64,000 nt of DNA, taken from assembly GCA_040880425.1 (NCBI GenBank), contig JBBDIL010000020.1:23312-87311 (forward strand), read 5' to 3'. The translations under genes were made by a program, and so were the position numbers. Shown here piece by piece: positions 41,832 to 56,899 of this stretch. A model generated the notes under the pieces. That model worked only from the letters and a program-made list of their open reading frames with translations, ran no database searches and was not told the DNA's origin. How positions within the stretch are numbered: position 1 is the stretch's first letter; each line of letters begins with the position of its first letter. The DNA comes from Burkholderiales bacterium (GTDB taxonomy: Bacteria; Pseudomonadota; Gammaproteobacteria; Burkholderiales; Eutrophovitaceae).

Positions 41832-42749
41832 TCAGGGGATCGCGACTTCTTCGATCAGGCGTTGTGCGAGGTCCATGCCGTCAAGCGACGCATAGCCGTT
41901 TACCGGATGCAGCCGATGGCCCGCGACGCTCGGCAGCACCGACTGTAGATCCTCGGGAATCACTTCCCTGCGACCGTCCATGAATGCCCAGGCGCGCCCG
42001 GCATTCAGCAGGTACAGGCCCGCGCGCGGGCTCAGACCGTTCACGAAGTCCGGGGATTGCCGGGTATAGGCCAGCAGCGCCTGCAGGTAGTCGATCAGCG
42101 CCGGCGCAGTATGCAGGTCGCGCACCCGCTTCTGCAGCGAAAGCAGTTCCGGCGTGGTCAGTGCCGGCTCGAGATCGGAAATCATGTCCCGGCGTTCGCG
42201 CCCTTCGAGCAGCACACGTTCCGCCGCGCTGTCCGGGTAGCCCAGATGGATGCGCATCAGGAAACGGTCGAGCTGCGATTCCGGCAGCGGGAAGGTGCCG
42301 ACCTGGTGCGACGGATTCTGCGTGGCGATGACGAAGAACGGTTCCGGAAGCGGGCGCGTTTCGCCTTCGGCGGTGACCTGGTGTTCTTCCATCGCTTCCA
42401 GCAGCGCACTCTGGGCTTTCGGTGTGGCGCGATTGACTTCGTCCGCCAGGATCACCTGCGAGAAGACCGGCCCCGGATGGAACTTGAAAGTCGAGCTGTC
42501 CCGGTCGAACACCGATATGCCGAGGATGTCAGCCGGCAGCAGGTCACTGGTGAACTGGATGCGTTGAAAATCCAGTCCGAGAGTTCTGGCGAGCGCGTGC
42601 GCGAGCGTGGTTTTCCCCACGCCGGGCAGATCCTCGATCAGCAGATGCCCGCGCGCAAGCACGCACGCCAGGGTCAGTCTGATTTGATGCTCCTTGCCGA
42701 GGATGATGCGGCTGATCTGGCCGATAACAGGATCTAGCGGATGGGACAT
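41832..42749 (-). CDS. MoxR-family AAA+ ATPase
   Basis: A 305-aa protein with Walker A GVGKTT, Walker B ILADEVNR, and ATQNP. Confidence 0.85.
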   Translation of the reverse strand: MSHPLDPVIGQISRIILGKEHQIRLTLACVLARGHLLIEDLPGVGKTTLAHALARTLGLDFQRIQFTSDLLPADILGISVFDRDSSTFKFHPGPVFSQVILADEVNRATPKAQSALLEAMEEHQVTAEGETRPLPEPFFVIATQNPSHQVGTFPLPESQLDRFLMRIHLGYPDSAAERVLLEGRERRDMISDLEPALTTPELLSLQKRVRDLHTAPALIDYLQALLAYTRQSPDFVNGLSPRAGLYLLNAGRAWAFMDGRREVIPEDLQSVLPSVAGHRLHPVNGYASLDGMDLAQRLIEEVAIP

Positions 42750-42859: not shown

Positions 42860-45541
42860 TCAGGACGGCACCAGGGTCTTGACCAGGTGTTTGAGGGTGG
42901 GATCGTTCGGATCCGTGCGCGCACTGAAGCCGAGCGCCGTCATCAGCCGCAGCATCCTGTCATTGTTGTGCAGGACGTAGCCTTCCATGGTCTTCAGACC
43001 TTTTTCGCGAGCGGCATCGAACAGCGCGTGCATCAGCCGCGATCCAATGCCCCTGCCCTGCCAGCCGTCGGCGACTACGATGGCGAACTCACAGCTATCG
43101 CCGTCCGGATTGATGGCGTAGCGTGCGACGCCGATCTGCGTGGCCCTGCCATTTTCTTCGGCGATGGCGACGAGCGCCATCTCGCGGTCGTAGTCGATCT
43201 GGGTAAACCGCACCAGCATGCGCTCCGACAGCTCGCGCAGCGCGCTGATGAAGCGGAAATACTTGGATTCCTCCGACAGTCCGGCGACGAAAGCCTTCTC
43301 TGTTTCGGCATCCTCGGGGCGGATCGGGCGCACGACGATGGCGACGCCGTCGTCAAAGGTCCAGCGTTGCTCGAGGTGGGCGGGGTAGGGATGGATCGCC
43401 ATATGGGCATAGCGCTGCCCCGGCAGCGGGCGCTCCACGCGGGTCACCACGACGCGCGCGTCGGTTGCGACTGCGCCGTTGCCATCCACCGTCAACGGAT
43501 TGATATCGAGTTCCTGCAGGCCCGGCAGCTCGCAGGCCATCTCCGACACGCGCAACAGGACGGTTTCCAGCGCCTGCATGCCGCCGGCACCGGTCTGCTC
43601 CAGCAACGGCGCGACCCGCGTGCGCGCCACCATGTCGTGGGCCAGAAACCTGTTCAGCGGCGGCAGCGAGACGGCGCGGTCGCCGATCAGCTCGACCTGC
43701 GCGCCGCCTGCGCCGAACGCGATCACCGGCCCGAACAACGGATCGGTGAACAGACCCACCAGCAGTTCGAGGCCGTCGGGCTTGTCCACCATCGGTTCCA
43801 CTGCAATGCCGTCGATCTTCGCGTCCGGTGCCGACCTGCCGACTGCGACAAGAATCTGTTCGAATGCCGCATGCACTTCCTCGACGCTTCGCACATGCAG
43901 CCGTACGCCACCGGCCGCACGCTTGTGGGGGACATCGGCCGAACTGATCTTCATCGCTACCGGAAAACCGATCCTCTGCGCGATCGCCGACGCCTCACCG
44001 GCGGTGCGCGCAACTTCCGCCGCCACCACCGGAATCCTGAAGGCGGCGAGCAGGGCTTTCGATTCGTGCTCCGTGAGCACCTCGCGGCCCTGCGCCAGCA
44101 CCGAATCGATCAACGATTGCGCGGCCTCGATGTCCGGCGGTTCCTGGTGCGCGAGCGGGCCCGGCACCTGCATCAGCAGGCGCTGGTTGCGATAGAACGA
44201 AGCGACATTGGCGAACGCCTCGACCGCGGGCTCAGGCGTGCGAAACACCGGGATGCGGGCGTCGGTTAGCAGCGCGCGAGCCTGCTCCACCGTGCGGTCG
44301 CCCATCCAGCAGGCGAACAGCTGCTTGCTGCTGTCGCGCGCGAGATCGATCACGGTCTTCGCCACCTCGACCGGCTCGGTCATCAACTGCGGCGTAAGGA
44401 TCACCAGCAGTCCGTCCGCGCGCGGATCTTCCAGGCAGGCATGCACCGCTGCGCGATAGCGGCTGGTGTCGGCGTCCTCCAGCAGGTCCACCGGATTGTC
44501 GCGAGACCAGTCGGGCGGCAGCACGCGGTCCAGCCGGGCGATGGTCTGGCCGGACAGTTCCGGGACTTCTACCCCGATCTGGTTCGCCCAGTCCGCGGCC
44601 ATCACGCCGGGCCCGCCGCCGTTGGTGATGATGGCAAGCTGGTTGCCTACCGGCCGATAGCGCGAAGACAGGCACTTGGCGGCGGAGAACAACTGGATGA
44701 AGGTGCGCACACGTACCGCGCCGGCACGCCGGAGCGCGGCATCCGAAACCTCGTCTCGCCCGGCGAGCGAACGCGTGTGCGTAATCGCAGCGCGCAGCCC
44801 CGCGGCCTCCCGGCCCGACTTGAGCACGATCACCGGCTTGGCGCGGGCAGCGGCGCGCAGGGCGCTCATGAATTTCCTGGCGTTGCGGATGCCTTCCACG
44901 TACAGCACGATGCTTTCAGTGGCGGGATCCAGCGTGAGGAAATCCAGCACGTCGGCAAAATCGACGTCCAGCTTGTTACCGAGCGACACCACGCTTGAGA
45001 AACCGACCTCGTCGCTGTATGCCCAGTCGAGCACGGCGGAAACCAGTGCGCCGGATTGCGCCACCAGCGCCACCGAACCCGCACTGGCGCGGCTGGACGC
45101 AAAGGTGGCGTTCAGTCCGCTCGCCGGGCGCATGACCCCGAGCGAATTCGGACCGAGCACCCGTATGCGATGCCGCCTGGCCGAATCTGCCACCGCCTGC
45201 AGGTGTTTTGCGCCCGCCGGGGTTGCGTCGGTCAATCCCGATGACACGATCGCCACCGCGCGCACGCCGCGGGCGCCGCAGTCCTCGACGATTCCCGGGA
45301 TCGACTCGGCCCGCGTGGCGATCACTGCCAGATCGACCGCTTCGGGAAGTTCGCGCACGGTGGCATACACGGTGGCGCCGAAGGCGGCAGTACGACGTGG
45401 GTTGACCGCGTACAACCGGCCGCCGAAACCATCGAGCAGATGCCGCATCAGCGCCGCGCCCACGCTGGCGGGGTCCTCACTGGCGCCGACCACCGCGACG
45501 GAAGCCGGCATGAGCAGCGGGGCGAGGGGATGATTTTTCAC
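42860..45541 (-). CDS. Pat/YfiQ-type protein lysine acetyltransferase (NDP-forming acyl-CoA synthetase-like region plus C-terminal GNAT)
   Basis: An 893-aa protein with N-terminal CoA-binding (VAVVGAS), succinyl-CoA-synthetase-like and ATP-grasp regions, and a C-terminal GNAT motif (WQGRGIGSRLM). Confidence 0.8.
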   Translation of the reverse strand: MKNHPLAPLLMPASVAVVGASEDPASVGAALMRHLLDGFGGRLYAVNPRRTAAFGATVYATVRELPEAVDLAVIATRAESIPGIVEDCGARGVRAVAIVSSGLTDATPAGAKHLQAVADSARRHRIRVLGPNSLGVMRPASGLNATFASSRASAGSVALVAQSGALVSAVLDWAYSDEVGFSSVVSLGNKLDVDFADVLDFLTLDPATESIVLYVEGIRNARKFMSALRAAARAKPVIVLKSGREAAGLRAAITHTRSLAGRDEVSDAALRRAGAVRVRTFIQLFSAAKCLSSRYRPVGNQLAIITNGGGPGVMAADWANQIGVEVPELSGQTIARLDRVLPPDWSRDNPVDLLEDADTSRYRAAVHACLEDPRADGLLVILTPQLMTEPVEVAKTVIDLARDSSKQLFACWMGDRTVEQARALLTDARIPVFRTPEPAVEAFANVASFYRNQRLLMQVPGPLAHQEPPDIEAAQSLIDSVLAQGREVLTEHESKALLAAFRIPVVAAEVARTAGEASAIAQRIGFPVAMKISSADVPHKRAAGGVRLHVRSVEEVHAAFEQILVAVGRSAPDAKIDGIAVEPMVDKPDGLELLVGLFTDPLFGPVIAFGAGGAQVELIGDRAVSLPPLNRFLAHDMVARTRVAPLLEQTGAGGMQALETVLLRVSEMACELPGLQELDINPLTVDGNGAVATDARVVVTRVERPLPGQRYAHMAIHPYPAHLEQRWTFDDGVAIVVRPIRPEDAETEKAFVAGLSEESKYFRFISALRELSERMLVRFTQIDYDREMALVAIAEENGRATQIGVARYAINPDGDSCEFAIVVADGWQGRGIGSRLMHALFDAAREKGLKTMEGYVLHNNDRMLRLMTALGFSARTDPNDPTLKHLVKTLVPS

Positions 45542-45663
45542 GGCACTGGCACGAACGCGGGAATCTAAGTTAGGTTATCGGAAGTGCGCTGCCGAGCCAA
45601 ACCGTGAATAATCGCGGCGGCGAACGCAAGCAGACAATCATCCGTTTCATTATTCATTACAGC

Positions 45664-46587
45664 ATGCCCACCGCCTTCTTTCATCACAGCGACTGCCGCC
45701 TGCACGACATGGGCACGCATCACCCGGAAAGTCCCGCGCGTCTGACCGGAATCGAAGACCACCTGCTGGCGACCGGTGTGCTGCCGCACCTGCTGGAAAG
45801 GGAGGCGCCGCTGGCGTCTCGTGAAGCGCTTATCCGGGTGCACGAAGCCGATTACGTGGACATGCTCAAGGCGGCGATCCCCGAGCAGGGGATCATGCAC
45901 CTGGATCCGGATACCGCCATGTGCCCGCATACGCACCAGGCGGCGCTGCGGGCTGCCGGCGCTGCGGTGGCGGCGACCGACATGGTGATCGGCGGCGAGG
46001 CAGACAACGCTTTCTGCAACGTGCGCCCGCCCGGACATCACGCCGAGCGCCGGCGCGCGATGGGTTTCTGTTTTTTCAACAACGTCGCAGTCGCTGCCGC
46101 ACATGCGCTGGAAGCACACGGCCTGTCGCGGGTTGCGATCATCGACTTCGACGTGCACCACGGCAACGGCACGGAGGAGATCTTTGCCGGCGACGGGCGC
46201 GTGATGATGGCATCGACCTTCCAGCATCCGTTCTACCCTTACAGCGGAGCTGAAGGGCGGTCCGAGCGCATGGTCAACGTGCCGCTCGCAGCCTATGCCG
46301 GCAGCCGGGAGTTCCGCGAAGCGGTGGATCATGCATGGATGCCTGCACTCGGAAATTTCCGTCCGGAGATGATCTTCGTGTCGGCCGGATTCGACGCCCA
46401 CCGGGAAGACGATTTGGCCATGCTGGCCTTGACCGAGGCCGATTACGGCTGGGTCACCGCCCGCATCAAGCAGATCGCCGACCTGTCTGCCGGCGGCCGT
46501 ATCGTTTCCAGCCTGGAAGGCGGCTACCACATCGAGGCGCTGGCGCGCAGCGTGGCCGCGCACATCCGCGTGCTGGCTGACCTCTGA
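45664..46587 (+). CDS. Histone-deacetylase-family (class II / AcuC-like) zinc amidohydrolase
   Basis: HPESPAR, RPPGHHA and DFDVHHGNGT motifs. I chose ATG 45664. Confidence 0.85.
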   Translation: MPTAFFHHSDCRLHDMGTHHPESPARLTGIEDHLLATGVLPHLLEREAPLASREALIRVHEADYVDMLKAAIPEQGIMHLDPDTAMCPHTHQAALRAAGAAVAATDMVIGGEADNAFCNVRPPGHHAERRRAMGFCFFNNVAVAAAHALEAHGLSRVAIIDFDVHHGNGTEEIFAGDGRVMMASTFQHPFYPYSGAEGRSERMVNVPLAAYAGSREFREAVDHAWMPALGNFRPEMIFVSAGFDAHREDDLAMLALTEADYGWVTARIKQIADLSAGGRIVSSLEGGYHIEALARSVAAHIRVLADL

Positions 46588-46918
46588 TCACTGCTGTCCC
46601 GCTGCATTGGCGGTACGGCAGCTTTCGCGAATCGACATCCCCCGTTCGTCACGCCACCGTGTTCCCGGCTGCGGGAGCTGATCCTCACGCCGTCCGGGTT
46701 CCAGCCGGGCAATGCAGGAACTCGCACCCGCATTGACCTTTGATCGCAACGAAGCGGCTTAAGGTATTTCGCGCCCCTGACTAGGGAAAACCCCGATTTT
46801 TCCTTGCGTGACGGGCTGTTAACGTTGCATCCATGTTGAAACCCATCCTCGCTTCAGGCGTTTGCCCCTGCATGCCCAGGATGAATGGATTCGCGTACCC
46901 AGAGGATTGGATACAGGA

Positions 46919-47290
46919 ATGGGCAGCCCAAGAGTTCTGCTGATAGACGACAACACCGCGTTTCTTGCGGCAGCGTCACAGTATCTGACGGATTTCTGCG
47001 ACGCGACGGTCGTGGGCACTGCGCAGTCCGGTGCAGAGGGCGTGCAGTTGGCGGAAACGCTGCGGCCGGATGTGGTGCTGCTCGATTTCAGGATGCCTGG
47101 CATGGACGGGCTGGAAGCGACCCGCCGCATCAAGGCGCTCCCGCGGCCTCCGATCGTCATCATGGCATCGCTGAACGCCGAAACCCGGGAGCAAAGCCTG
47201 GCGGAGGGCTGCGATGCCTTCCTCTCCAAGCCGGCTTTCACCGATGAGATCGGGCCGCTGCTCACAACGTTACTGCAGGCCGAGAGCTGA
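46919..47290 (+). CDS. Single-domain CheY-like response regulator
   Basis: The 123-aa protein begins at MGSPRVLLIDDN. It has the phospho-acceptor context VVLLDFRMPGMDG and the conserved Lys in FLSKP. There is no output domain. Confidence 0.85.
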   Translation: MGSPRVLLIDDNTAFLAAASQYLTDFCDATVVGTAQSGAEGVQLAETLRPDVVLLDFRMPGMDGLEATRRIKALPRPPIVIMASLNAETREQSLAEGCDAFLSKPAFTDEIGPLLTTLLQAES

Positions 47291-47340
47291 CGGAAGGTCC
47301 TGCTCCGCAGTTACCAGGAAACAGGTTCACTCGCCACATT

Positions 47341-48804
47341 ATGAATACACCGCGCATTTCGATCGGCATTTCCGGACTGGATGAAATCGTCAGCGGCGGT
47401 TTGCCCGAACGACGGAGCTATCTGGTCGTCGGCAGCGCCGGCAGCGGCAAGACCATTCTGTCCCTGCAGTTTCTGATGGAAGGACAACGCCGCGGCGAGC
47501 GCACGGTTTACGTGACGCTGGCGGAACCGTCCAGCGACATCGCGCGCGATGCCGACAGTTTCGGCTGGTCGCTGGACGGCATCGAGTTCGTCGACCTGCT
47601 GAGCGACCGCGGCCCCACCGGCGGCGACGAGTATCACGTGTTCAGGGCTTCCGAAGTCGAGCATGTTCCGGTATGGCAGGGCATTTACGACACGGTAGCC
47701 CGCTGCCGCCCGCAGCGCCTCGTCATCGATTCGCTGACGCACCTGCGCTTCATCAGTACCGACGAGTACCAGTTCCGAAAACAGATTCTGACGCTGATCA
47801 ATCACCTGAGCGCATCGGGCTGCACCTCGCTGATGACTTACGAACCCGCCGAACTCGAACGCGAGGCGGCGGTCGGCCTGGCGACCGATGGCGTCATTCG
47901 CCTGAACAACACGATTTCCGCCGGAGTTGGCGCCGGTCTGCGCAGCGTGCAGGTGGAGAAGCTGCGCGGGTCCGATTTCCTTTCGGGCCGGCACCCGCTG
48001 CGCATCCGACCGAGCGGCATCGAGGTGCATCCGCACTGGGTGGAGCAGCCCGGCAGGACCCATCCGGGCCAGGTGCAGATCCCTTCCGGCATCGCGGCGC
48101 TGGACGAGTTGCTGGGCGGCGGGCTGGACAGCGGCACCACCACTTTGCTGAGCGGCCCCGCGGGCGTAGGCAAGAGTTCGCTCGGGCTGCAGTTCCTCGT
48201 GCGCAAAGTGGCAGAGGGCGGATCCTCGGTGATGTACACCTTCGAGGAATCGGAAGATTCCGTACTGGCCCGCAGCCGGGGCATCGGCATCCCCGTCGAG
48301 GATGCAATCAGGGCGGGGCGCCTGCGTATCGTGCGGGTAAATCCGATCGAGTTCTATCCGGACGAGTTTCTCGGTATGGTGCGCCGCGCGGTGGAACAGG
48401 GTGGCGTTTCCACCGTCATGGTGGACAGCCTGCGCGGGTACGAACTGGCGATGGAAGAGTTCGGCATGGCGAAGGCGCACATCCATAATCTGGTGGCCTA
48501 TCTTTCCGGACGCGGCGTGACCACGGTGCTGGTGAGCGAGGTGGAATACATCACCAGCGCCGATCTGCCCATCACCGACCAGGGCGTGAGTCATCTCGCC
48601 GACACCGTGCTGTTGCTGCGCTACGCGGAGACCGGGGGCGAGATCATCAAGGTCGTCAGCTGCCTGAAGAAGCGCGTGAGCGGTTTCCAGCCCGAGTTGC
48701 GGCAACTGACCGTGGACGCCGCCGGCATTCATGTCGGCGAAAAGCTCCGGCATCTGCGCGGCGTGCTGTCGGGTGCGCCTTCGATCCAGGTGCAACGGGA
48801 ATGA
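47341..48804 (+). CDS. KaiC-like double RecA-domain ATPase
   Basis: A 487-aa protein with two tandem halves. Each has GLDEx(3)GG and a Walker A (GSAGSGKT at the N-terminus; GPAGVGKS in the second half). The acidic motifs are TLAEP and TFEESED, and the Walker B is LVIDSL / VMVDSL. Confidence 0.8.
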   Translation: MNTPRISIGISGLDEIVSGGLPERRSYLVVGSAGSGKTILSLQFLMEGQRRGERTVYVTLAEPSSDIARDADSFGWSLDGIEFVDLLSDRGPTGGDEYHVFRASEVEHVPVWQGIYDTVARCRPQRLVIDSLTHLRFISTDEYQFRKQILTLINHLSASGCTSLMTYEPAELEREAAVGLATDGVIRLNNTISAGVGAGLRSVQVEKLRGSDFLSGRHPLRIRPSGIEVHPHWVEQPGRTHPGQVQIPSGIAALDELLGGGLDSGTTTLLSGPAGVGKSSLGLQFLVRKVAEGGSSVMYTFEESEDSVLARSRGIGIPVEDAIRAGRLRIVRVNPIEFYPDEFLGMVRRAVEQGGVSTVMVDSLRGYELAMEEFGMAKAHIHNLVAYLSGRGVTTVLVSEVEYITSADLPITDQGVSHLADTVLLLRYAETGGEIIKVVSCLKKRVSGFQPELRQLTVDAAGIHVGEKLRHLRGVLSGAPSIQVQRE

Positions 48805-51800
48805 TCGTCAGAGCTGAAGGCCCGGAGGCGACCATCGGCCTGCTGATCGGCGAGCGGGCCGATCGCGATCTGCTGGAAGCGTTCTTCGGCGAACTCGGCT
48901 ACCGCGTCACCGGCGGGCCGGTAAACACCCTCGACCCGGCGCAACTCGACACCGCATCCCTGCTCATCGTGGACGAACAGGCAGCACAGTCGTTTGCCGA
49001 TCCGTTGCTGGCACTCAAGCGTGCCATGGAGCCGGTGGTGCTGCCGATCCTGGTGCTGGTGCCCGAGCGCGCCCGTATCGGCGACTGGATCCGCCGCGGA
49101 TTCGACGATGTGCTGCGGGCACCGCTTGGCAAGGATGAGCTGCTCGCGCGGGTCGAGGCGCATCTGCGCCTGCGTGCCATCTCGGTCAGGGCGGCGCGCG
49201 ACAGCGCGGAGAAATTCAGGCAGACCTTCGATCTGGCACCATCCGGCATCGCGCATACCGCAATGGACAGCACGATACTGCTCGTCAATGCGCGGTTGTG
49301 CGACATGTTTGGTTATACCGAGCAGGAGCTTTGCCGGTTGAAACTGGTGGACCTGGTGTTCTCCGCCGAGCTCGACTCGACACTGGGTTTCCGGCGCAGA
49401 CTCGTGGAAGGAAGCTCGCAGCGTGAAGTCGTGGAGAAATCCTATCTGCGCAAGGACGGCACGGTCCTGTGGGCGGAGCAGGTAATGACGCTGGTGCGCG
49501 ACACTGCAGGGCAGCCGTCCTATTTCATATCGATAATCAACGACATTACCGACCGAAAGAAGCTTGAAACGGACATGCGCGCGGCCATACGGGCACGCGC
49601 GTTTGCGGCCCACTCCAACCGCGTATTGGTTCACGCCATGGGCGAACAGCAGTTGTTCGATGACATGTGCAAGGCCGCGGTCGAAAGCGGCGGCTACCGG
49701 ATGGCGTGGATCGGAATCCCGCAGCAAGACGAGGGAAGGACAATTCGAGTCGCGGCGGGCGCCGGCGTCGGTCTCGATTATCTCGATGCCATGCGCGTCA
49801 CATGGCGTGACGGCGACGAACGCGCGCAGAGCGCTGCGGGGACCGCGGTACGCACCGGTGTGACGACCATCATCGCCGACACGGCACGCGATCCCCGTAT
49901 GGCACCATGGCGGCTGGCGCTTATGGCGAACGGATTCCGCTCGATTATCGGCTTGCCCTTGGTCTCCACGGGCAGAGTGCTGGGCGTTCTGGTATTGCAT
50001 GCCGGCGAACCAGACGCCTTTTCGCGCGAGGAAGTGGCGTTGCTGGAGGAATTGGCCGCCGATACGGCATATGGCGTGGCGGCGTTGCGCAACCGTGATG
50101 CGCGCCTCGCGGCGGAGCGGGCGTTGGAAGAGTCGGCGCGGTTTGCCATTGCGACCATCGATGCTCTGTCGAATCATGTCTGCGTCCTAGACGAAAGCGG
50201 CACTATTCTGGCTGTAAACCGCGCCTGGCGCGCGTTTGCCGAAAGCAACGGCGGACTGCAGAGCGACTCGATGTTCGAGGGCGGCAACTATCTGGAAGTG
50301 TGCGACCGCGCCGCCGGCGCCCACGCCGATGAGGCGCCGATCGTAGCTGAAGCGCTGCGCGGGATCATCGCCGGCACCCGCGACGAGTTTTCGATCGAGT
50401 ATCCGTGTCATGGCCCGGAGAACGAACGCTGGTTTTTGATGACCGTTTCGCGGTTCGCAGGCGAAGGCCCAACGCGCGTGGTGGTTACTCATGAAGACAT
50501 TACGGCGAACAAGCAGGCCGACCGTGAACTGCGCGAAAGCGAGGAACGCTTCCGCAGCCTGACCGAACTGTCGTCCGACTGGTACTGGGAGCAGGACGAG
50601 AACTACAGATTCATTCGCCTGCCCGGCGGTACCGAACGTGTCAACCCGAGCGACCACATCGGCAAGACCCGCTGGGAGATCGGCTACGCCAACATGACGG
50701 AGGCCGACTGGGCCGGACACAGGGCGATGCTGGATGCGCGGCAACCGTTCCGTGACCTGGTGTTCTCGCGCACCCGCGCCGACGGCGGGACGTATTTCGT
50801 AAGCATTAGCGGCGAGCCGATTTTCGACGAACGGGGCAACTTCAAGGGTTATCGCGGCGTGGGACGCGACATCACGCTGCAGAAAGAAGCGGAAGCCGCG
50901 CTGCGGGATAACGAGGAGCGCCTGCGCTCGACGCTGGATGCGGCGCTCGATTGCGTGATCTCGATCGATGTCGCGGGTCGCATCATCGACTTCAATCCCG
51001 CCGCCGAAAAAACCTTCGGCTACTCACGTGCCGAGGCGCTCGGGCAGGACATGGCGTCGCTGATGATTCCGGAGCGGTATCGCGAGGCGCATTTCCGCGG
51101 CATGACCCGGCACCTCGAGAACCCGGATTTCCATGCGCTGAACCGGCGCCGCGAAGTGCAGGCGCTGCGACGCGACGGCAGCGAGTTTCCCGCGGAGATC
51201 GCTGTGGTCTCGACGCGTACGCATGATCAGACCGTATTCACCGCGTTTCTGCGCGACGTCAGCGAACGCAAGGCCGCCGAGACCCGTCTGCTGCACATGG
51301 CGCATTACGACAGCCTGACCGATCTGCCCAACCGCGTGCTGATCCAGGATCGCCTGCGGCAGGCGGTGGCGCAGGCATTGCGCAGCAACCGGCCCGGCGC
51401 CTTGCTGTTCATCGATCTCGACCGCTTCAAGTGGGTGAACGATACGCTCGGGCATCCGGTTGGCGACAGGCTGCTCAAGGAGGTCTCGGCGCGTCTGGAA
51501 CAGTGCCTGCGTTCCGGCGATACCGTCGGCCGCCTCGGCGGGGACGAGTTCGCGGTGATCCTTTCCAACCTGTCGAAAGCACAGGATGCGCAGATCGTGG
51601 CGCAGAACATCATGTGCGCATTCGACCGGCCGTTCGAGAGCAAGGGGCACGAGACCTTCGTGACCGTCAGCGTCGGCATCACGGTGTTTCCGAACGACGG
51701 ACAGGACGCCGACACCCTGATCCGCAATGCGGATGCCGCGATGTACCGGGCCAAGGACGACGGCCGCAATACCTTCGCCTTGTTTACCAGCGACATGAAT

Positions 51801-52607
51801 GCCAGGGCGACCGATCGCCTGAAGCTGGAAAGTGACCTGCGCCGCGCGCTGGAGCGCAGGGAATTCCGACTGCACTATCAGCCGCGGGTCGACGCGACTT
51901 CCGGCCGCATTGTCGGCGTGGAAGCGCTGCTGCGCTGGCAGCGGTCGGACGGCACCATGGTTTCTCCTGGCGAATTCGTGCCGCTGCTGGAGGAGACCGG
52001 ACTCATCCTGCCGGTAGGCGACTGGGTTATGGAGGAAGCCTGCCGGCAGCACCGGGCGTGGACGGAGGCCTGCAGGCAACCGCTGCCGGTCGCGGTCAAC
52101 CTGTCGCCGCGCCAGCTGCACAACCATGCCCTGACAACGCGCGTGCGCAGTCTGATCGAAACCTATGCTATTGCGCCGGATATGCTGGAGCTGGAGATCA
52201 CCGAAAGCTCGCTGATGCGCAATTCGGACGAAGCGGTGCGGATGCTCACGGAGATTCGCGAACTCGGCGTGCGCATCGCGATCGACGACTTCGGCACCGG
52301 CTACTCCAGCCTGAGCTATCTCAAACGCTTCCCGGTGGACTACCTGAAGATCGACCAGAGCTTCGTGCGCGATGTCACGGCCGATGCCGACGATGCCGCG
52401 ATCGCGCGCACCATCATCATCATGGCGCATCAGCTCGGCCTGAAAGTGATCGCCGAGGGCGTGGAAACCGCGGAACAGTTGGCCTTCCTGCAGGCGTACG
52501 ACTGCGACGAGGCGCAGGGCTACCTGTTCTCGCGTCCGGTACCGGCGGACGCAATCGCCACGCTGCTGCAGGACGCGCGTTCGGGGAAGGTCGCGCGCGC
52601 GGCCTAG
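48801..52607 (+). CDS. Multidomain c-di-GMP enzyme: degenerate receiver, PAS, GAF, three PAS, GGDEF, EAL
   Basis: A 1268-aa protein. GGDEF is intact with an I-site (RSGD-x5-GGDEF). EAL is intact (VEALLRW, DDFGTGYSSL, KIDQSFV, EGVE). ATGA overlap with the kaiC-like gene. Confidence 0.85.
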   Translation: MIVRAEGPEATIGLLIGERADRDLLEAFFGELGYRVTGGPVNTLDPAQLDTASLLIVDEQAAQSFADPLLALKRAMEPVVLPILVLVPERARIGDWIRRGFDDVLRAPLGKDELLARVEAHLRLRAISVRAARDSAEKFRQTFDLAPSGIAHTAMDSTILLVNARLCDMFGYTEQELCRLKLVDLVFSAELDSTLGFRRRLVEGSSQREVVEKSYLRKDGTVLWAEQVMTLVRDTAGQPSYFISIINDITDRKKLETDMRAAIRARAFAAHSNRVLVHAMGEQQLFDDMCKAAVESGGYRMAWIGIPQQDEGRTIRVAAGAGVGLDYLDAMRVTWRDGDERAQSAAGTAVRTGVTTIIADTARDPRMAPWRLALMANGFRSIIGLPLVSTGRVLGVLVLHAGEPDAFSREEVALLEELAADTAYGVAALRNRDARLAAERALEESARFAIATIDALSNHVCVLDESGTILAVNRAWRAFAESNGGLQSDSMFEGGNYLEVCDRAAGAHADEAPIVAEALRGIIAGTRDEFSIEYPCHGPENERWFLMTVSRFAGEGPTRVVVTHEDITANKQADRELRESEERFRSLTELSSDWYWEQDENYRFIRLPGGTERVNPSDHIGKTRWEIGYANMTEADWAGHRAMLDARQPFRDLVFSRTRADGGTYFVSISGEPIFDERGNFKGYRGVGRDITLQKEAEAALRDNEERLRSTLDAALDCVISIDVAGRIIDFNPAAEKTFGYSRAEALGQDMASLMIPERYREAHFRGMTRHLENPDFHALNRRREVQALRRDGSEFPAEIAVVSTRTHDQTVFTAFLRDVSERKAAETRLLHMAHYDSLTDLPNRVLIQDRLRQAVAQALRSNRPGALLFIDLDRFKWVNDTLGHPVGDRLLKEVSARLEQCLRSGDTVGRLGGDEFAVILSNLSKAQDAQIVAQNIMCAFDRPFESKGHETFVTVSVGITVFPNDGQDADTLIRNADAAMYRAKDDGRNTFALFTSDMNARATDRLKLESDLRRALERREFRLHYQPRVDATSGRIVGVEALLRWQRSDGTMVSPGEFVPLLEETGLILPVGDWVMEEACRQHRAWTEACRQPLPVAVNLSPRQLHNHALTTRVRSLIETYAIAPDMLELEITESSLMRNSDEAVRMLTEIRELGVRIAIDDFGTGYSSLSYLKRFPVDYLKIDQSFVRDVTADADDAAIARTIIIMAHQLGLKVIAEGVETAEQLAFLQAYDCDEAQGYLFSRPVPADAIATLLQDARSGKVARAA

Positions 52608-52612
52608 CGAGC

Positions 52613-55233
52613 ATGAATACGCCGGGCGCTGCAATGCAGGGCAGGAGCAAGGCCGGCAAGGCGGACGGCGTTCAATCCTGGCCACGCAAGCGATGGCCTT
52701 TGCGCCTGCGGCTGTACGCTATGGCGCTGGTAGTGGCCGTGCCTGCCGGTATCTACGTGGCACACGATATCGCGAATCACATCGCTGACGAGTTCAGGGA
52801 AGCGCGGCGGGAGATGCTGACCCTGGCACAGGTCACCGCAATCGACACGGCGGAATTCCTCGGAGATTCGGGTGACATGCTCACGCGCTTCGCGCGGCGC
52901 ATGGTGATCGGCGAGGCAGAGCGCGGCGATTGCGGGCTGGTGCGTGAATTTTCGCTACTGCAGGCGCGGTTCGCCAACATGGGCCTGGCCAACCTCGAGG
53001 GCAGGCTGGTGTGTACTTCTCTGCCGGTGGCAAATGGCAGATCGATATCGATCGCGCACCGCGGGTGGTTCAGGGCGGTAAGCGCCGGCAGCCCGTTCGC
53101 GATCGGCGAGGTCATGGTCGACCTGGTCACAGGTACAAGGGCGGTGGCATTCGGCGTGCCGGTACGTGACGCAAACGGGACGCTGAGCGGGGCGCTGGGC
53201 ATCAGCCTGAGCCTCGCCGGCTACCAACCGGTGACTGCTGGCGCAACGCACCGGCCGGGCAGTATCGTTGCGCTGGTCGATGGCGACGGCTTAGTGATCT
53301 CCAGTTCGATCCAACCGGAGCGGTTCGCCGGGACGAGCGTGCGCGACTCGCAGGTCATGCAGGCAGTTTCCGGGCGGCAGCAGGGCGTCATGCGCGCCGC
53401 CGCCTTCGACGGCATCGAGCGCGTATATGGCTACACCCGCGTCCATGGCAGCGATTGGTACGCGCTGGCCGGCCTGCCCGTGCAGGCGGTGCACGCCACG
53501 GCACTTGCCGATGTTTGGCGCAAGATAGTGTTCCTGTCGACAATCGTCTTCTTGCTCGGAGTGTTGGCCTGACGTCTCGGACGCAGCATCGAGCGGCCGG
53601 TGCGGGCAATCGCGGAGCCGCGCGGGAGGTGGCCGCCGGCAAGCTCGACAGGCGGATTGCAGTCCACGGCCTTGCCGAGGTCGAAGACGTTGCGCGCGCG
53701 CTAAACGAAATGCTTGACGTGCGAACCAGCACCGAAGCGGCGTTGCGTGAAAGCGAGGCACAGCGGGCAGGCATCATCGATTCGGCAATGGATGCGATCG
53801 TCACCGTGGACGACAGGCAGAACATCGTGATCTTCAACAAGGCCGCGGAACGCATGTTCCGTAATCCGGCAAGCGCGTGCGTTGGAGAACCGGTGCAACG
53901 CTTTTTCGCCTCAGCCGACCGGGCGGCGTACCGCCGGCAAATCGAAACCCTGGACAGGGCGGACGGCGACGCCCGGTCGGCGGAATTACTCACCGGCATG
54001 AGCGCGCTGCGCGCCGACGGCGAGACATTTCCGGTCGAGGTAACGGTCTCGCGCACGACCGCTGCAGGCAAGACCTTGTACACGGTGATTCTGCGCGATA
54101 TCACCGAGCGCAAACGTGCGCAGCAGCAGATCGAGAAGCTGGCGACGAACCTGGAAAAGAGAGTCGCCGAGCGCACGCTGCAACTCGAGACCGCCAACGT
54201 CAGGCTGCAGCGTTACGCGAAAGAGTTGACGCAGCTTGGAGAAATCAGCAACCGCTTTCAAGCCTGCACCAGCGTGAAGGAAGCTGCGTGTGCGGCGGCG
54301 CAGTTTTTGCGGCGGCTGGCGGACGCCGGCGGTGTGTTCCTGGTGGATTCTTCTCGCAAACTGGTTGAGGCCGTCTCCTGCTGGGGCGATGTCAGCGCTG
54401 AAGAACAGTTGTTCAGACAGGGGGAATGCCTGGCGCTGCTGCTGGGCAAAATGATCGTGGCGGATGGCTCGCGCGAGCAGCCGCGCTGCCGTCACGTCAG
54501 GCACGACGGTCCTTACCTGTGCGCACCAATAGTCGCACAGGGAGAGACGCTGGGCATCCTGCATTTGAGCGGAGAGTGGGGTAACGCCGGACATGACATC
54601 GGGGAAGACCGGTCCGAGTTCCTGCGTATCGTTCAGACAGTGGCGGAACGGACGAATCTTGCCTTGGTCAACCTGAGGCTTCGCGAGACGCTGCGCGCGC
54701 AATCGATCCGCGATCCGCTGACGCATCTGTACAACCGGCGTTTCCTGGAAGAAACACTGGACATGCAGGAAAGCCTGGCCCGGCGCAAGGGCACTTCGAT
54801 CGGACTGATGATGATCGACGTGGATCACTTCAAGGCGTTCAACGATACCCACGGCCACGATGCCGGCGACCAGGTGTTGCGCGAACTGGCAAAGGTGCTG
54901 CAGACACACACGCGCACCGAGGACGTGGCCTGCCGCTACGGCGGAGAAGAGCTGTGCGTGGTACTGCCGGGGGCATCACCCGGGATCACGCGGGGACGCG
55001 CCGACCAGCTGCGCCGCTCGGTAGCGGAACTGCCGCTGGAACGCGCAGGCACGTCTCTTGGGCAAGTGACCATCTCGATTGGCGTGTCGAGCTTCCCCGA
55101 TCATGGGGCGAACTGGCATGAGGTGCTGAAGGCTGCGGATACTGCCCTGTACCGGGCCAAGCAGCAGGGCAGAAACCGGGTTGCGGTCGCCGGATCGCCG
55201 CCTGGCAATCAGGACAAGTTGTCGGGCAGCTAG
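52613..55233 (+). pseudogene. Cache-type periplasmic sensor / HAMP / PAS / GAF / GGDEF diguanylate cyclase gene, interrupted by an in-frame TGA (53570-53572) and a 1-nt frameshift (about 53617)
   Basis: Track ORFs 52058..53572 (real start ATG 52613, MNTPGAAMQ...) and 53455..55233 are in different frames. The HAMP sequence RLGRSIERPVRAIAE | AAREVAAGKLDRRIAVHGLAEVEDVARALNEML is split across the stop and the frame change. The C-terminal half has RTED-x5-GGEEL. Confidence 0.7.
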
Positions 55234-55598
55234 AGCAGCAATGCCGCGGCGACTTTACGGTCTTCCGCGACCAGGATGTTGTAGGTGCGGCAGGCGGCGG
55301 CGGTGTCCATCACCTCGACGCCGGTGCCTGCCGCGTACAGGGGCTGCAGCAGCCGCGGATGCGGGAAGCGCAACCTGGCCCCGGTTCCCAGCAGGACGAT
55401 TTCGACATCGAGCGCGGCCAGCTCGCCAACCGCTGTTTCGTTCAGTGCGTCGAATCCGGAAACATTCCAGTCCTCCAGCAACTGGTCCGGCAGCACCACG
55501 AGGCTCTGCTCGTAACGCACCCGGTTCACCATGACGTAGCCCGCGCCATAGCCGGTTACGGCATTGCGGCCTTGAGGTCTGGAGATATGCAGTTTCAA
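55230..55598 (-). CDS. Mth938-like / DUF498 small protein
   Basis: A 122-aa protein whose pattern (ITGYG...VLLGTG...[14 protein letters not shown]) is typical of this family. Confidence 0.6.
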
Positions 55599-55690
55599 GC
55601 GCGGCTCTTTTGCTGGGCGGTGTGCGATCCGGTACGATTATATCTTTTCGCGTTCCGACAAACGCTTACCCCGGTTCGAGCCTGCCCAGA

Positions 55691-56899
55691 ATGAGAGAGT
55701 TCCCGCGCATCAAACGGCTGCCGCAGTACGTCTTCAATATCACCGGGGACCTGAAAATGGCCGCGCGCCGCCGGGGCGAGGACATCATCGACCTGTCGAT
55801 GGGCAACCCGGACGGACCGACGCCGAAGCATATCGTCGACAAGCTGGTGGAAACGGTGCAGCGGCCGAACACGCACGGTTACTCCGTTTCGAAAGGCATT
55901 CCGCGACTGCGCAAGGCGATCTGCGGCTGGTATCGGCGGCGCTACGGTGTGGAGCTGGACCCTGACGCGGAGGCCATCGTCACCATCGGTTCCAAGGAAG
56001 GCATCGCGCATCTGGCGCTGGCCACGCTGGAACGCGGCGACATCGTACTGGTGCCGAACCCGAGCTACCCGATCCACATCTACGGGCCGGTGATCGCCGG
56101 CGCCGACATCCGCCATGTGCGCAATACGCCCGAGGTGGATTTCTTCGATGAGCTGGAACGCGCGATCAAGGAGTCGTTCCCGAAACCGAAGATGCTGATC
56201 ATCAACTTCCCCGGCAATCCAACCACGCAGTGCGTGGAACTGCCGTTCTTCGAGCGCATCGTTGCGCTGGCGCGGGAGCATGGCATTTTCGTGGTGCACG
56301 ACCTGGCTTATGCCGACATCGTGTTCGACGGCTACAAGGCGCCTTCGATCATGCAGGTGCCAGGTGCGCGGGAGGTGGCGGTGGAATTCTTCACCATGTC
56401 GAAGAGCTACAACATGGCCGGCTGGCGCATCGGCTTCATGGTCGGCAACCGCGAGCTGGTCAATGCGCTCGCGCGCATCAAGAGCTACCACGACTACGGC
56501 ATGTTCACGCCGGTCCAGGTAGCGTCGATCATCGCCCTGGAAGGACCGCAGGATTGCGTGGAAGATATCCGCCTGACCTATCAGAAGCGTCGCGACGTGA
56601 TGGTCAAGGGACTGCGGGAAGCCGGCTGGATGGTGGATAACCCGAAAGCGGCGATGTATATCTGGGCGCGTATCCCGCAGTTCTACGCAGGGCTCGGCTC
56701 GCTGGAGTTTTCCAAGAAACTGCTGGCGGACGCCAAAGTGGCGGTATCGCCCGGTATCGGCTTCGGCGAGTACGGCGATGATTACGTGCGCCTGGCGCTG
56801 ATCGAGAACGAAGCCCGCATCCGGCAGGCGATCCGCGGAATCAAGGAAATGTTCCGCAGGGACGGGGCGCAGAACGGCCTGCTGCGCGCCGCAGGCTGA
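55691..56899 (+). CDS. Class I/II pyridoxal-phosphate aminotransferase (AlaC / aspartate aminotransferase-like)
   Basis: [16 protein letters not shown]..., [12 protein letters not shown] (PLP-lysine motif). It lies upstream of hom-thrC. I chose ATG 55691. Confidence 0.8.

What the first reader, a model, noticed from the sequence alone, without database searches (positions are those of the whole stretch)
46919..55233. Kinase-less operon: CheY-like receiver, KaiC-like ATPase and two c-di-GMP enzymes
Seen in sequence: four same-strand genes are packed as one unit. The REC gene (46919..47290) is followed by a 50-nt gap and the KaiC-like gene (47341..48804). An ATGA start/stop overlap at 48801-48804 leads into the 1268-aa degenerate-REC/PAS/GAF/3xPAS/GGDEF/EAL gene, which runs to 52607. 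A 5-nt gap precedes a Cache/HAMP/PAS/GAF/GGDEF gene. The KaiC-like protein has two RecA-type halves, each with its own Walker A (GSAGSGKT; GPAGVGKS) and acidic motif (TLAEP; TFEESED). In my from-memory alignment to S. elongatus KaiC, ITDQGVSHLADTVLLLRYAE matches ITDSHISTITDTIILLQYVE. That keeps the Ser431 and Thr426 equivalents but replaces Thr432 with His. The cluster contains no KaiA, KaiB, SasA/CikA-like or any other histidine kinase, yet the REC protein keeps its acidic pocket, phospho-acceptor Asp and Lys. Established knowledge: cyanobacterial KaiC state is read out by proteins that dock through KaiB-like or pseudo-receiver domains. Inference: here a KaiC-family ATPase/autokinase may be coupled directly to c-di-GMP synthesis and hydrolysis through REC and pseudo-REC modules. 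I do not recognise this as a described pathway.
Basis: partly seen in the sequence, partly recalled or inferred. Interest (0 to 1): 0.8.

Follow-up and report, generated by a model that had tools for sequence, protein, structure and literature searches.

The report
KaiC-like ATPase paired with c-di-GMP enzyme
A clock-protein relative (KaiC-like ATPase) in a Burkholderiales genome sits in one operon with a c-di-GMP-making and -breaking enzyme that starts with a dead receiver domain; this pairing recurs in many bacteria, so it is probably a variant of the known KaiC-plus-histidine-kinase signalling modules that acts through c-di-GMP instead.

Summary
The genes are real, and three of the four are as described. 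They are a canonical stand-alone receiver (46919-47290), a two-domain KaiC-family ATPase (47341-48804) and, overlapping it by ATGA, a 1268-aa PAS/GAF/PAS/GGDEF/EAL protein. The fourth gene is not intact: it has an in-frame TGA (53570-53572) and a -1 frameshift (~53617).

Residues 8-126 of the GGDEF-EAL protein form a pseudo-receiver ("PsR-A"). No Pfam family covers it, the AF2 model has pLDDT 91.5, and Foldseek hits receiver domains at probability 1.0. It keeps Asp58 but lacks the acidic pair, the Thr/Ser and the Lys.

In 79 of 80 evaluable genomes, a KaiC-like gene is followed at once by a gene that opens with a pseudo-receiver. For PsR-A, the output is GGDEF(-EAL) in 10 loci and a histidine kinase in 7. 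HD-GYP outputs also occur. The upstream receiver and the fourth gene are not conserved partners.

KaiB-less kaiC followed by a kinase with a receiver-like N-terminus was described in 2011. KaiC–kinase binding was shown in Pseudomonas in 2022. This cluster is therefore a c-di-GMP output variant of a known kind. The coupling is inferred, not demonstrated.

The parts
46919..47290 (+). Stand-alone canonical receiver (123 aa; D10, D11, D56, S84, K104)
   Evidence: Pfam Response_reg E 1.7e-22. Residues read from the sequence. No orthologue at other KaiC-like loci; the best matches are NarL-type receivers at 59 bits.
47341..48804 (+). KaiC-like double RecA-type ATPase (487 aa). The CI half has Walker A but only one catalytic Glu (A61/E62). 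The CII half has Walker A, E302/E303, T412, S417 and H418
   Evidence: PF06745 E 4e-82 with two stretches. PDB KaiC chains E 4e-63 to 1e-48 over residues 5-481. Scores fall below the NCBIfam circadian KaiC cut-offs (260 vs 408; 170 vs 546). Motifs surveyed in 89 homologues.
48801..48804 (+). ATGA start/stop overlap between the KaiC-like gene and the GGDEF-EAL gene
   Evidence: Read from the ORF list. Junctions are equally tight (-4 to about +30 nt) at other loci with reliable starts.
48822..49178 (+). PsR-A: N-terminal pseudo-receiver domain (aa 8-126) of the GGDEF-EAL protein. Asp58 is kept; the acidic pair, Thr/Ser and Lys are missing
   Evidence: No Pfam or NCBIfam hit. The profile hits PDB receivers, best the PleD D2 adaptor at E 5e-11. 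AF2 pLDDT 91.5 with a (beta-alpha)5 fold. Foldseek PDB top hits are all receivers, probability 1.0, TM about 0.7. 210 representative clusters, nearly all with the domain at the extreme N-terminus.
48801..52607 (+). 1268-aa PsR-A / PAS / GAF / PAS x3 / GGDEF / EAL protein. I-site RSGD plus GGDEF at aa 904-917. EAL catalytic motifs are all present
   Evidence: Pfam GGDEF E 6e-53 (aa 834-990) and EAL E 2e-80 (aa 1012-1246), plus PAS and GAF. Motifs confirmed.
52613..53572 (+). Front part of gene 4: dCache_1 sensor between two transmembrane segments, ending in an in-frame TGA (53570-53572)
   Evidence: Pfam dCache_1 E 2.5e-15. Translations.
53573..55233 (+). Rear part of gene 4: HAMP (split by a -1 frameshift at about 53617), PAS, GAF and GGDEF (motif GGEEL, I-site RTED)
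   Evidence: Three-frame translations. Pfam HAMP, PAS and GAF, and GGDEF at E 5e-50 on ORF 53455-55233. Motif confirmed.

Best explanation
This is a KaiA- and KaiB-independent member of the KaiC ATPase family. It is co-transcribed and probably translationally coupled with a multi-sensor GGDEF-EAL enzyme.

The most likely mechanism has three steps. First, the KaiC-like protein forms a hexamer. Second, its nucleotide or autophosphorylation state (Ser417 in the intact CII site) is read by direct binding of the enzyme's N-terminal pseudo-receiver (PsR-A). Third, this shifts the balance between c-di-GMP synthesis (GGDEF) and hydrolysis (EAL), which the PAS and GAF sensor domains also modulate.

It is the c-di-GMP-output version of the KaiC / histidine kinase / response regulator modules known from Ramlibacter and Pseudomonas. 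PsR-A acts as a portable adaptor that is also found in front of histidine kinases and HD-GYP phosphodiesterases. The upstream canonical receiver is probably an accessory input or partner, as single-domain regulators are in Pseudomonas, and is phosphorylated by a kinase encoded elsewhere. The disrupted Cache-HAMP-PAS-GAF-GGDEF gene is a neighbouring cyclase, not a core part.

Shown here: domain identities, motifs, the pseudo-receiver fold, gene order and its conservation. Inferred: hexamer formation, autophosphorylation, binding through PsR-A, and the effect on enzyme activity.
For: - Full-length KaiC homology with an intact CII catalytic site and Ser417.
- ATGA overlap with the downstream gene.
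- The N-terminal domain is a receiver-fold pseudo-receiver.
- Forward survey of 80 GTDB genome loci plus 4 others: 79 of 80 evaluable KaiC-like genes are followed on the same strand by a gene opening with a pseudo-receiver. PsR-A occurs in 22 loci (10 GGDEF(-EAL), 7 kinase, 5 undetermined). A second type, PsR-B, occurs in 57 loci, with a kinase as the only output detected (53 of the 55 typed).
- Reverse survey seeded on the PsR-A motif: 10 of 15 metagenome loci with enough upstream DNA have a KaiC-like gene directly upstream.
- In 150 representative proteins, PsR-A almost always sits at the extreme N-terminus, in front of kinase, GGDEF-EAL or HD-GYP outputs.
- The type of pseudo-receiver tracks the KaiC clade.
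- No KaiB was found in any locus.
- Literature on sister systems: co-transcription of kaiC with its kinase in Ramlibacter, and the proposal that the kinase's receiver-like N-terminus is the KaiC-binding module (PMC3164672); KaiC binding to its kinase and a single-domain regulator by two-hybrid and co-immunoprecipitation, and KaiC phosphorylation, in Pseudomonas (bioRxiv 10.1101/2022.01.26.477890).
Against: - No interaction, ATPase, phosphorylation or c-di-GMP data exist for this clade.
- In P. putida, the kinase's PAS domain, not a receiver-like domain, was sufficient for KaiC binding. The contact could therefore be the PAS domain next to PsR-A.
- Five of 15 PsR-A loci lack an adjacent KaiC-like gene.
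- PsR-A and PsR-B each resemble canonical receivers more than each other (hhalign probability 95% and 90%, versus 61% to each other). A single dedicated KaiC-docking family is therefore not shown.
- The best PDB match of PsR-A is the PleD D2 adaptor, whose role is dimerisation.
- The CI half lacks one catalytic Glu in the whole family, so ATPase behaviour may differ from clock KaiC.
Confidence: 0.6

Rival explanations
1. The two genes are functional partners, but PsR-A is only a dimerisation or adaptor domain like PleD D2. KaiC contacts the neighbouring PAS domain or acts indirectly, for example as a chaperone or assembly ATPase for the large sensor enzyme.
For: The best PDB match of the PsR-A profile is the non-phosphorylated D2 adaptor of PleD. 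In P. putida, the PAS domain of the kinase sufficed for KaiC binding. A PAS domain follows PsR-A directly in the window protein and in many relatives.
Against: PsR-A is the only element shared by all the different output proteins encoded after this KaiC clade. Some partners have no PAS between PsR-A and the kinase core, for example L006 (400 aa) and L018 (351 aa). The pseudo-receiver type changes together with the KaiC clade.
Confidence: 0.2
2. The stand-alone receiver is the real control point. An orphan histidine kinase encoded elsewhere phosphorylates it, and it regulates the KaiC-like protein or the GGDEF-EAL enzyme. The cluster is then an ordinary two-component branch with a distant kinase.
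For: The receiver has every residue needed for phosphorylation. Close relatives L006, L009 and L015 carry a complete kinase plus NarL-type regulator just upstream of the KaiC-like gene, and those receivers are its best matches. Single-domain regulators accompany KaiC homologues in Pseudomonas and bind KaiC in P. putida. Canonical receivers are fused to the C-terminus of PsR-A-GGDEF-EAL proteins in L090, L097 and P0231.
Against: A stand-alone receiver lies within about 500 nt upstream in only 7 of 84 loci and is not orthologous between them. It cannot explain the near-universal link between KaiC-like genes and pseudo-receiver genes.
Confidence: 0.12
3. The KaiC-like protein is itself a phosphodonor. 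Phosphate taken up on Ser417, possibly passed through His418, is transferred to the Asp of the canonical receiver or to Asp58 of PsR-A, giving a phosphorelay without a histidine kinase.
For: The cluster and the 64-kb window contain no kinase. Asp58 is nearly invariant in PsR-A. His replaces the T432 equivalent in 17 of 89 homologues. Kinase-less relatives also carry canonical receivers.
Against: No KaiC-family protein is known to transfer phosphate to another protein (my knowledge of the family). PsR-A lacks the metal-binding acidic pair and the Lys needed for receiver phosphorylation chemistry. His418-type KaiC proteins also pair with ordinary kinases (L006, L010, L014, L016, L018). Most of the family has Tyr or Phe at that position.
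Confidence: 0.05
4. The adjacency has no functional meaning. The KaiC-like protein is a RecA/RadA-type DNA-repair ATPase that happens to lie among signalling genes.
For: It gives weak sub-threshold hits to the RadA, RecA and DnaB families.
Against: The same gene order holds in 79 of 80 loci across many phyla. The junctions overlap or are tight. Sister systems have experimental evidence of interaction. Full-length similarity is to KaiC, not to RadA.
Confidence: 0.03

Closest known systems
KaiB-less kaiC followed by an 'Nt_HK' histidine kinase (Ramlibacter tataouinensis Rta_04330/Rta_04340 and relatives; De Luca et al. 2011, PMC3164672)
   Same: A two-domain KaiC homologue without kaiA or kaiB. 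A co-oriented signalling gene lies immediately downstream, and its product begins with a conserved receiver-like domain proposed to bind KaiC. Phosphosite variants SY, TY, SF and SH occur. That paper already noted GGDEF/EAL proteins next to some kaiC genes.
   Different: Here the output is a GGDEF-EAL enzyme, not a kinase. The N-terminal domain (PsR-A) is a different pseudo-receiver subfamily from the one on the kinases of the SY/TY clade (PsR-B; hhalign probability only 61%). The paper's suggested likeness to the KaiB-like fold of SasA does not hold for PsR-A, which has a receiver fold.
Pseudomonas KaiC / histidine kinase / single-domain response regulator network (Terrettaz et al., bioRxiv 10.1101/2022.01.26.477890)
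   Same: KaiC homologues without KaiB, in operons with signalling proteins including a single-domain receiver. KaiC binds these partners and is phosphorylated. The function is stress adaptation rather than a circadian clock.
   Different: Those systems signal through a kinase; none was reported with a c-di-GMP enzyme as the direct partner. In P. putida the contact was mapped to a PAS domain. The phosphosites are TY/SY or SS rather than SH.
Cyanobacterial KaiABC clock output through SasA, CikA and KaiB
   Same: A KaiC hexamer whose state is read by docking of signalling proteins. One of these, CikA, uses a pseudo-receiver domain.
   Different: No KaiA or KaiB is present. CikA's pseudo-receiver binds KaiB, not KaiC directly (as summarised in PMC12632262). 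Scores fall below the NCBIfam clock KaiC cut-offs. The E77 equivalent is lost and T432 is His. There is no C-terminal tail beyond the core. No CikA or KaiA pseudo-receiver appears among the top 50 Foldseek hits.
PleD-type response regulator diguanylate cyclases (REC / adaptor pseudo-receiver / GGDEF)
   Same: A receiver-fold module controls a GGDEF domain. The PsR-A profile matches the PleD D2 adaptor best. An I-site is present.
   Different: PleD is switched on by phosphorylation of a true receiver by a histidine kinase. Here the only N-terminal module is non-phosphorylatable and is genetically tied to a KaiC-like ATPase.
Archaeal KaiC-like ATPases proposed as signal transduction hubs (Makarova, Galperin and Koonin 2017, as cited in PMC5847659)
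   Same: KaiC-family ATPases linked by fusion or neighbourhood to varied signalling domains, including KaiC-REC fusions.
   Different: Those are mostly single-domain archaeal proteins with other partners. This is a bacterial two-domain protein with a dedicated pseudo-receiver partner and a c-di-GMP output.

Membership tests
KaiC family (PF06745, two-domain form) | Two tandem RecA-type domains, each with a Walker A motif, aligned along the full length of KaiC | tested here: met
   PF06745 E 4e-82 with two stretches. Aligned over residues 5-481 to PDB KaiC chains at E 4e-63 to 1e-48. GSAGSGKT and GPAGVGKS are present.
Circadian clock KaiC (NCBIfam equivalogs NF006799, TIGR02655) | Score above the curated equivalog cut-off | tested here: not met
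   260 bits against a cut-off of 408, and 170 against 546.
Circadian clock KaiC | Catalytic Glu pair in CI (E77/E78) and in CII (E318/E319) | tested here: not met
   CI reads L-A-E (A61, E62), so the E77 equivalent is lost. This holds in all 89 homologues surveyed, which read TLxE[PST]. The CII pair E302/E303 is kept.
Circadian clock KaiC | Phosphosite pair S431/T432 plus T426 | tested here: not met
   T412 and S417 are kept, but the T432 equivalent is His418. 17 of 89 homologues have SH; the rest have S/T followed by Y or F.
Circadian clock KaiC | KaiB (and KaiA) partner genes | tested here: not met
The test is limited by that query and by the 64-kb window.
KaiB-less KaiC signalling modules (De Luca 2011; Terrettaz 2022) | A co-oriented signalling gene immediately downstream of kaiC | tested here: met
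   ATGA overlap in the window. 79 of 80 evaluable loci show the same order.
KaiB-less KaiC signalling modules | The partner protein begins with a conserved receiver-like domain | tested here: met
   PsR-A at aa 8-126, with a receiver fold by profile, AF2 and Foldseek. It is a different subfamily from the pseudo-receiver on the SY-clade kinases.
KaiB-less KaiC signalling modules | The partner is a histidine kinase | tested here: not met
   The partner carries GGDEF and EAL and has no HisKA or HATPase domain. Ten PsR-A loci share this output.
KaiB-less KaiC signalling modules | Physical interaction of KaiC with the partner, and co-transcription | not testable with these tools
   Known only from sister systems. 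No multimer prediction or expression data were available.
Receiver domain (PF00072), phosphorylatable | Acidic pair, acceptor Asp, Thr/Ser and Lys | tested here: met
   For the stand-alone REC: D10/D11, D56, S84 and K104; Pfam E 1.7e-22.
Pseudo-receiver | Receiver fold with missing catalytic residues | tested here: met
   (beta-alpha)5 model at pLDDT 91.5, with receivers as the top Foldseek hits. In the alignment to PleD, Ile/Gly stand at the acidic pair, there is no Thr/Ser on strand 4, and Ala stands at the Lys position. Asp58 is retained.
Active GGDEF diguanylate cyclase and EAL phosphodiesterase | GG[DE]EF with I-site; EAL, N, ExxE, DDFGTG, KxD, EGVE and QG motifs | tested here: met
   Gene 3 has RSGD...GGDEF at aa 904-917, EAL 1041, N1100, ELEITE 1130, DDFGTG 1162, KID 1183, EGVE 1219 and QG 1239. 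These are motifs only; activity was not tested. Gene 4 has GGEEL and is disrupted.

The most novel reading that the evidence does not exclude
The KaiC-like protein works as a phosphodonor that is not a histidine kinase. Phosphate taken up on Ser417, perhaps relayed by the clade-specific His418, passes to the canonical receiver that recurs in kinase-less versions of the system (stand-alone here; fused to the C-terminus of the GGDEF-EAL protein in L090, L097 and P0231). This would be a new type of phosphorelay, driven by a RecA-fold autokinase, that sets c-di-GMP levels.
Probability: 0.05. Interest if true: 0.9.

Novelty: new variant of a known kind. Interest (0 to 1): 0.5.

Why it matters
KaiC homologues without KaiA or KaiB are very common outside cyanobacteria. 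More than 1300 close relatives of this one were found. What they sense and how they signal is largely unknown.

This work suggests that a whole clade hands its state to a portable pseudo-receiver that no Pfam family covers. That domain sits in front of interchangeable outputs: histidine kinases, GGDEF-EAL enzymes and HD-GYP phosphodiesterases.

If the coupling is real, it links an ATP-driven, slowly cycling or energy-sensing switch directly to c-di-GMP, and so to biofilm and motility decisions. That includes the pathogen Legionella longbeachae.

It also offers simple test systems. The output is an enzyme activity that can be measured in vitro with and without the KaiC-like protein.

Tried and rejected
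- Word-indexed protein searches with the N-terminal domain, alone and as a profile, returned only one and two short fragments. The exhaustive representative search replaced them.
- Iterating the PsR-A HMM drifted into canonical C-terminal receivers from round 2. This shows homology to receivers but made the iterated model useless for classification. Only the first-round model and a separate PsR-B model were used.
Architectures were instead assigned with my own phmmer queries, plus one Pfam scan of 10 proteins.
- Exact-sequence look-ups of gene 3 and of the front of gene 4 found no record. The gene 4 lesions could therefore not be checked in an independent assembly.
- The Rfam scan of 46000-56000 gave only a sub-threshold HgcC hit. 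PADLOC gave no meaningful defence hit. The promoter and terminator scan was at chance level.
- An orthologue of the stand-alone REC at other loci was looked for and not found.
- Likeness of PsR-A to the KaiB-like fold of SasA, suggested in 2011 for the related kinase domain, was rejected on the predicted fold.
- The Makarova 2017 paper is not held in the library.

Full report
**What is in the sequence.**
The window comes from a Burkholderiales MAG: the KaiC-like protein is 100% identical to an NCBI "MAG: Burkholderiales bacterium" entry. Four plus-strand reading frames lie between an HDAC-family gene (45604-46587) and an aminotransferase gene (55610-56899). GC content matches the surroundings.
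- The first gene (46919-47290) is a canonical stand-alone receiver with D10/D11, D56, S84 and K104.
- After 50 nt comes a 487-aa protein that matches the Pfam KaiC family in both halves (E 4e-82). It aligns end to end with solved KaiC structures (E 4e-63 to 1e-48).
- Its stop overlaps, as ATGA, the start of a 1268-aa protein carrying PAS, GAF, three more PAS, GGDEF and EAL domains.
- That protein has an I-site plus GGDEF and a full set of EAL catalytic motifs.

**Correction to the observation.**
The fourth gene is not one ORF. The dCache-plus-transmembrane frame that starts at 52613 ends at TGA 53570-53572. A good HAMP sequence begins in the same frame straight after the stop. It then continues in another frame from about 53617, where GAG GCC appears as GAGCC. 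From there it runs through PAS, GAF and a GGDEF domain with motif GGEEL to 55233. Two lesions within 48 nt mean a pseudogene or a MAG assembly error. I could not check this in an independent assembly.

**The KaiC-like protein.**
T412 and S417 match T426 and S431 of S. elongatus KaiC, and His418 replaces T432. The CII catalytic pair is kept (E302/E303).

Both features are family traits, not local decay. In 89 homologues, CI always reads TLxE[PST]. The Ser/Thr at the 431 position is invariant. The next residue is His in 17 homologues (this clade) and Tyr or Phe in the rest.

The protein scores well below the NCBIfam cut-offs for clock KaiC. It ends where the KaiC core ends. No KaiB was found in the window or in any related locus. 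It is therefore a KaiC-family ATPase, not a clock KaiC.

**The N-terminal domain of the GGDEF-EAL protein.**
Residues 1-130 hit no Pfam or NCBIfam model. Even so, they align at 31-40% identity with the N-termini of the proteins encoded after KaiC-like genes in Actimicrobium, Paucimonas, a Pyrinomonadaceae genome and an Anaerolineae genome. This holds whether the partner is a GGDEF-EAL enzyme or a histidine kinase.
- A profile of 49 such domains matches solved receiver domains, best the non-phosphorylated D2 adaptor of PleD (E 5e-11).
- The AlphaFold2 model (pLDDT 91.5) is a five-stranded beta-alpha receiver fold.
- Its Foldseek hits in the PDB are all receivers, at probability 1.0 and TM about 0.7.
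- In the alignment to PleD, the acidic pair, the Thr/Ser and the Lys are absent, while Asp58 sits at the acceptor position.

I call this domain PsR-A; it is a pseudo-receiver. An exhaustive search of 1.84 billion representative proteins found 210 clusters. The domain is almost always at the extreme N-terminus. It sits in front of histidine kinases (about 78 of 150), GGDEF(-EAL) (15 of 150) or HD-GYP domains.

**Is the association conserved?**

*Forward test.* Eighty genome loci were seeded with the KaiC-like family and four more came from exact look-ups.
- Of 80 loci with enough sequence, 79 have a same-strand gene that begins at or near the KaiC stop and opens with a pseudo-receiver.
- PsR-A occurs in 22 loci: 10 GGDEF(-EAL), 7 kinase and 5 truncated or unassigned.
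- A second, distinct pseudo-receiver (PsR-B) occurs in 57 loci. A kinase is the only output detected there (53 of the 55 loci typed).
- The GGDEF-EAL version occurs in several Oxalobacteraceae and other Burkholderiales, Legionella longbeachae NCTC11477, Halospina denitrificans DSM 15505 and a Marinobacter MAG. A Bacillota MAG has it with GGDEF only.
- An unbootstrapped NJ tree of the KaiC proteins places these versions in at least two or three lineages interleaved with kinase outputs.

*Reverse test.* In loci seeded on the PsR-A motif, 10 of 15 with at least 1.4 kb of upstream DNA have a KaiC-like gene directly upstream and five do not.

*The other two genes.* The stand-alone receiver is not conserved as an orthologue. 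Its best matches are NarL-type receivers of complete two-component pairs that sit upstream of KaiC in three close relatives. Canonical receivers do recur in other forms: stand-alone upstream in 7 of 84 loci, fused to hybrid kinases, and fused to the C-terminus of PsR-A-GGDEF-EAL proteins in three kinase-less relatives. The Cache-type cyclase gene is not a conserved neighbour.

**How it probably works.**
The tight, conserved order strongly indicates a two-protein signalling unit. So do the overlapping junction, the restriction of PsR-A to the N-terminus of the downstream partner, and the way the pseudo-receiver type follows the KaiC clade.

The most likely mechanism is that PsR-A docks on the KaiC-like hexamer. 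It would then convey the hexamer's nucleotide or Ser417-phosphorylation state to the GGDEF and EAL domains. The hexamer, the phosphorylation and the docking are inferred by analogy.

The analogies come from two papers. De Luca et al. 2011 proposed the same role for the receiver-like N-terminus of kinases encoded after KaiB-less kaiC genes, and they showed co-transcription in Ramlibacter. Terrettaz et al. showed that Pseudomonas KaiC homologues bind their kinase and a single-domain regulator and are phosphorylated.

Several points weigh against the docking detail:
- The P. putida contact mapped to a PAS domain.
- PsR-A resembles the PleD dimerisation adaptor.
- PsR-A and PsR-B are each closer to ordinary receivers than to each other.
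- One third of PsR-A loci lack an adjacent KaiC-like gene.

**Comparison and novelty.**
The general kind is already described: a KaiB-less KaiC homologue with an adjacent signalling partner that has a receiver-like N-terminus. The 2011 paper even lists GGDEF/EAL neighbours and SH-type sites.

Four things are new here:
- PsR-A is a receiver-fold pseudo-receiver that no Pfam family covers.
- It is a portable module in front of kinase, GGDEF-EAL and HD-GYP outputs.
- The c-di-GMP output version is common and phylogenetically scattered within one KaiC clade.
- The CI catalytic Glu is lost throughout the family.

I rate this a new variant of a known kind, of moderate interest.

Noticed in passing
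window 53570-53572 and ~53617: Gene 4 (Cache-HAMP-PAS-GAF-GGDEF) carries an in-frame TGA just after its second transmembrane segment. It also has a -1 frameshift 45 nt later, inside HAMP (GAG GCC read as GAGCC). This is either a pseudogene or a MAG assembly error.
   Followed up: partly
window 54913-54954 (aa 487-500 of ORF 53455-55233): The GGDEF motif of gene 4 is GGEEL (Phe replaced by Leu), preceded by an intact I-site, RTED.
   Followed up: no
window 47521-47526 and 89 homologues in loci L001-L088: The first catalytic Glu of the CI half (E77 of S. elongatus KaiC) is replaced by Ala, Ser, Cys, Thr, Gly or Val in every member of this KaiB-less family, which reads TLxE[PST]. The CII pair is kept. 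CI ATPase chemistry may therefore differ from clock KaiC.
   Followed up: partly
window 42860-45541 (-) and 45604-46587 (+): A divergent gene pair lies just upstream of the cluster. One gene is a Pat-like ADP-forming acyl-CoA synthetase fused to a GNAT acetyltransferase. The other is an HDAC-family deacetylase. Together they could form a protein acetylation/deacetylation pair. A MoxR-type AAA ATPase lies at 41832-42749 (-).
   Followed up: no
loci L028-L088 (e.g. L060 8423-9706, L076 8452-10011): A second pseudo-receiver family (PsR-B) opens the histidine kinases encoded after the SY/TY-type KaiC clade. Its consensus is VLVLAPxGRDA ... AEEAL ... WSDxPxIVLT ... LLERPxR. This is probably the 'RtaNt' domain of De Luca 2011.
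   Followed up: partly
proteins P0187, P0208, P0238: PsR-A also sits in front of GAF/PAS plus HD-GYP (HD_5) domains. These are a second class of c-di-GMP phosphodiesterase output.
   Followed up: partly
L090 3986-7018, L097 131-3070, P0231: These are PsR-A-GGDEF-EAL proteins with a canonical receiver (DD, D, S, K all present) fused at the C-terminus. L090 has a KaiC-like gene directly upstream and no kinase nearby.
   Followed up: partly
L091 3737-7783, L094 3974-8344, L096 3974-4351, L101, L109: These PsR-A proteins have no KaiC-like gene directly upstream. Three of them have a receiver ORF upstream instead. Their KaiC partner may be encoded elsewhere or be absent.
   Followed up: no
L006 5062-11343; L009 265-4748; L015 3980-8971: In three close relatives, a complete kinase plus NarL-type regulator pair sits directly upstream of the KaiC-like gene on the same strand. 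The window's stand-alone receiver is most similar to those regulators' receivers, so it may be a remnant of such a pair.
   Followed up: partly
protein P0121: A 145-aa PsR-A fragment is annotated as an unnamed protein of the alga Phaeothamnion confervicola. It is most likely bacterial contamination in that assembly.
   Followed up: no
L020 8500-9946: This is the only evaluable locus with no recognisable pseudo-receiver gene after the KaiC-like gene. The downstream DNA has no long plus-strand ORF, so the partner may be degraded or the sequence may carry frameshift errors.
   Followed up: no
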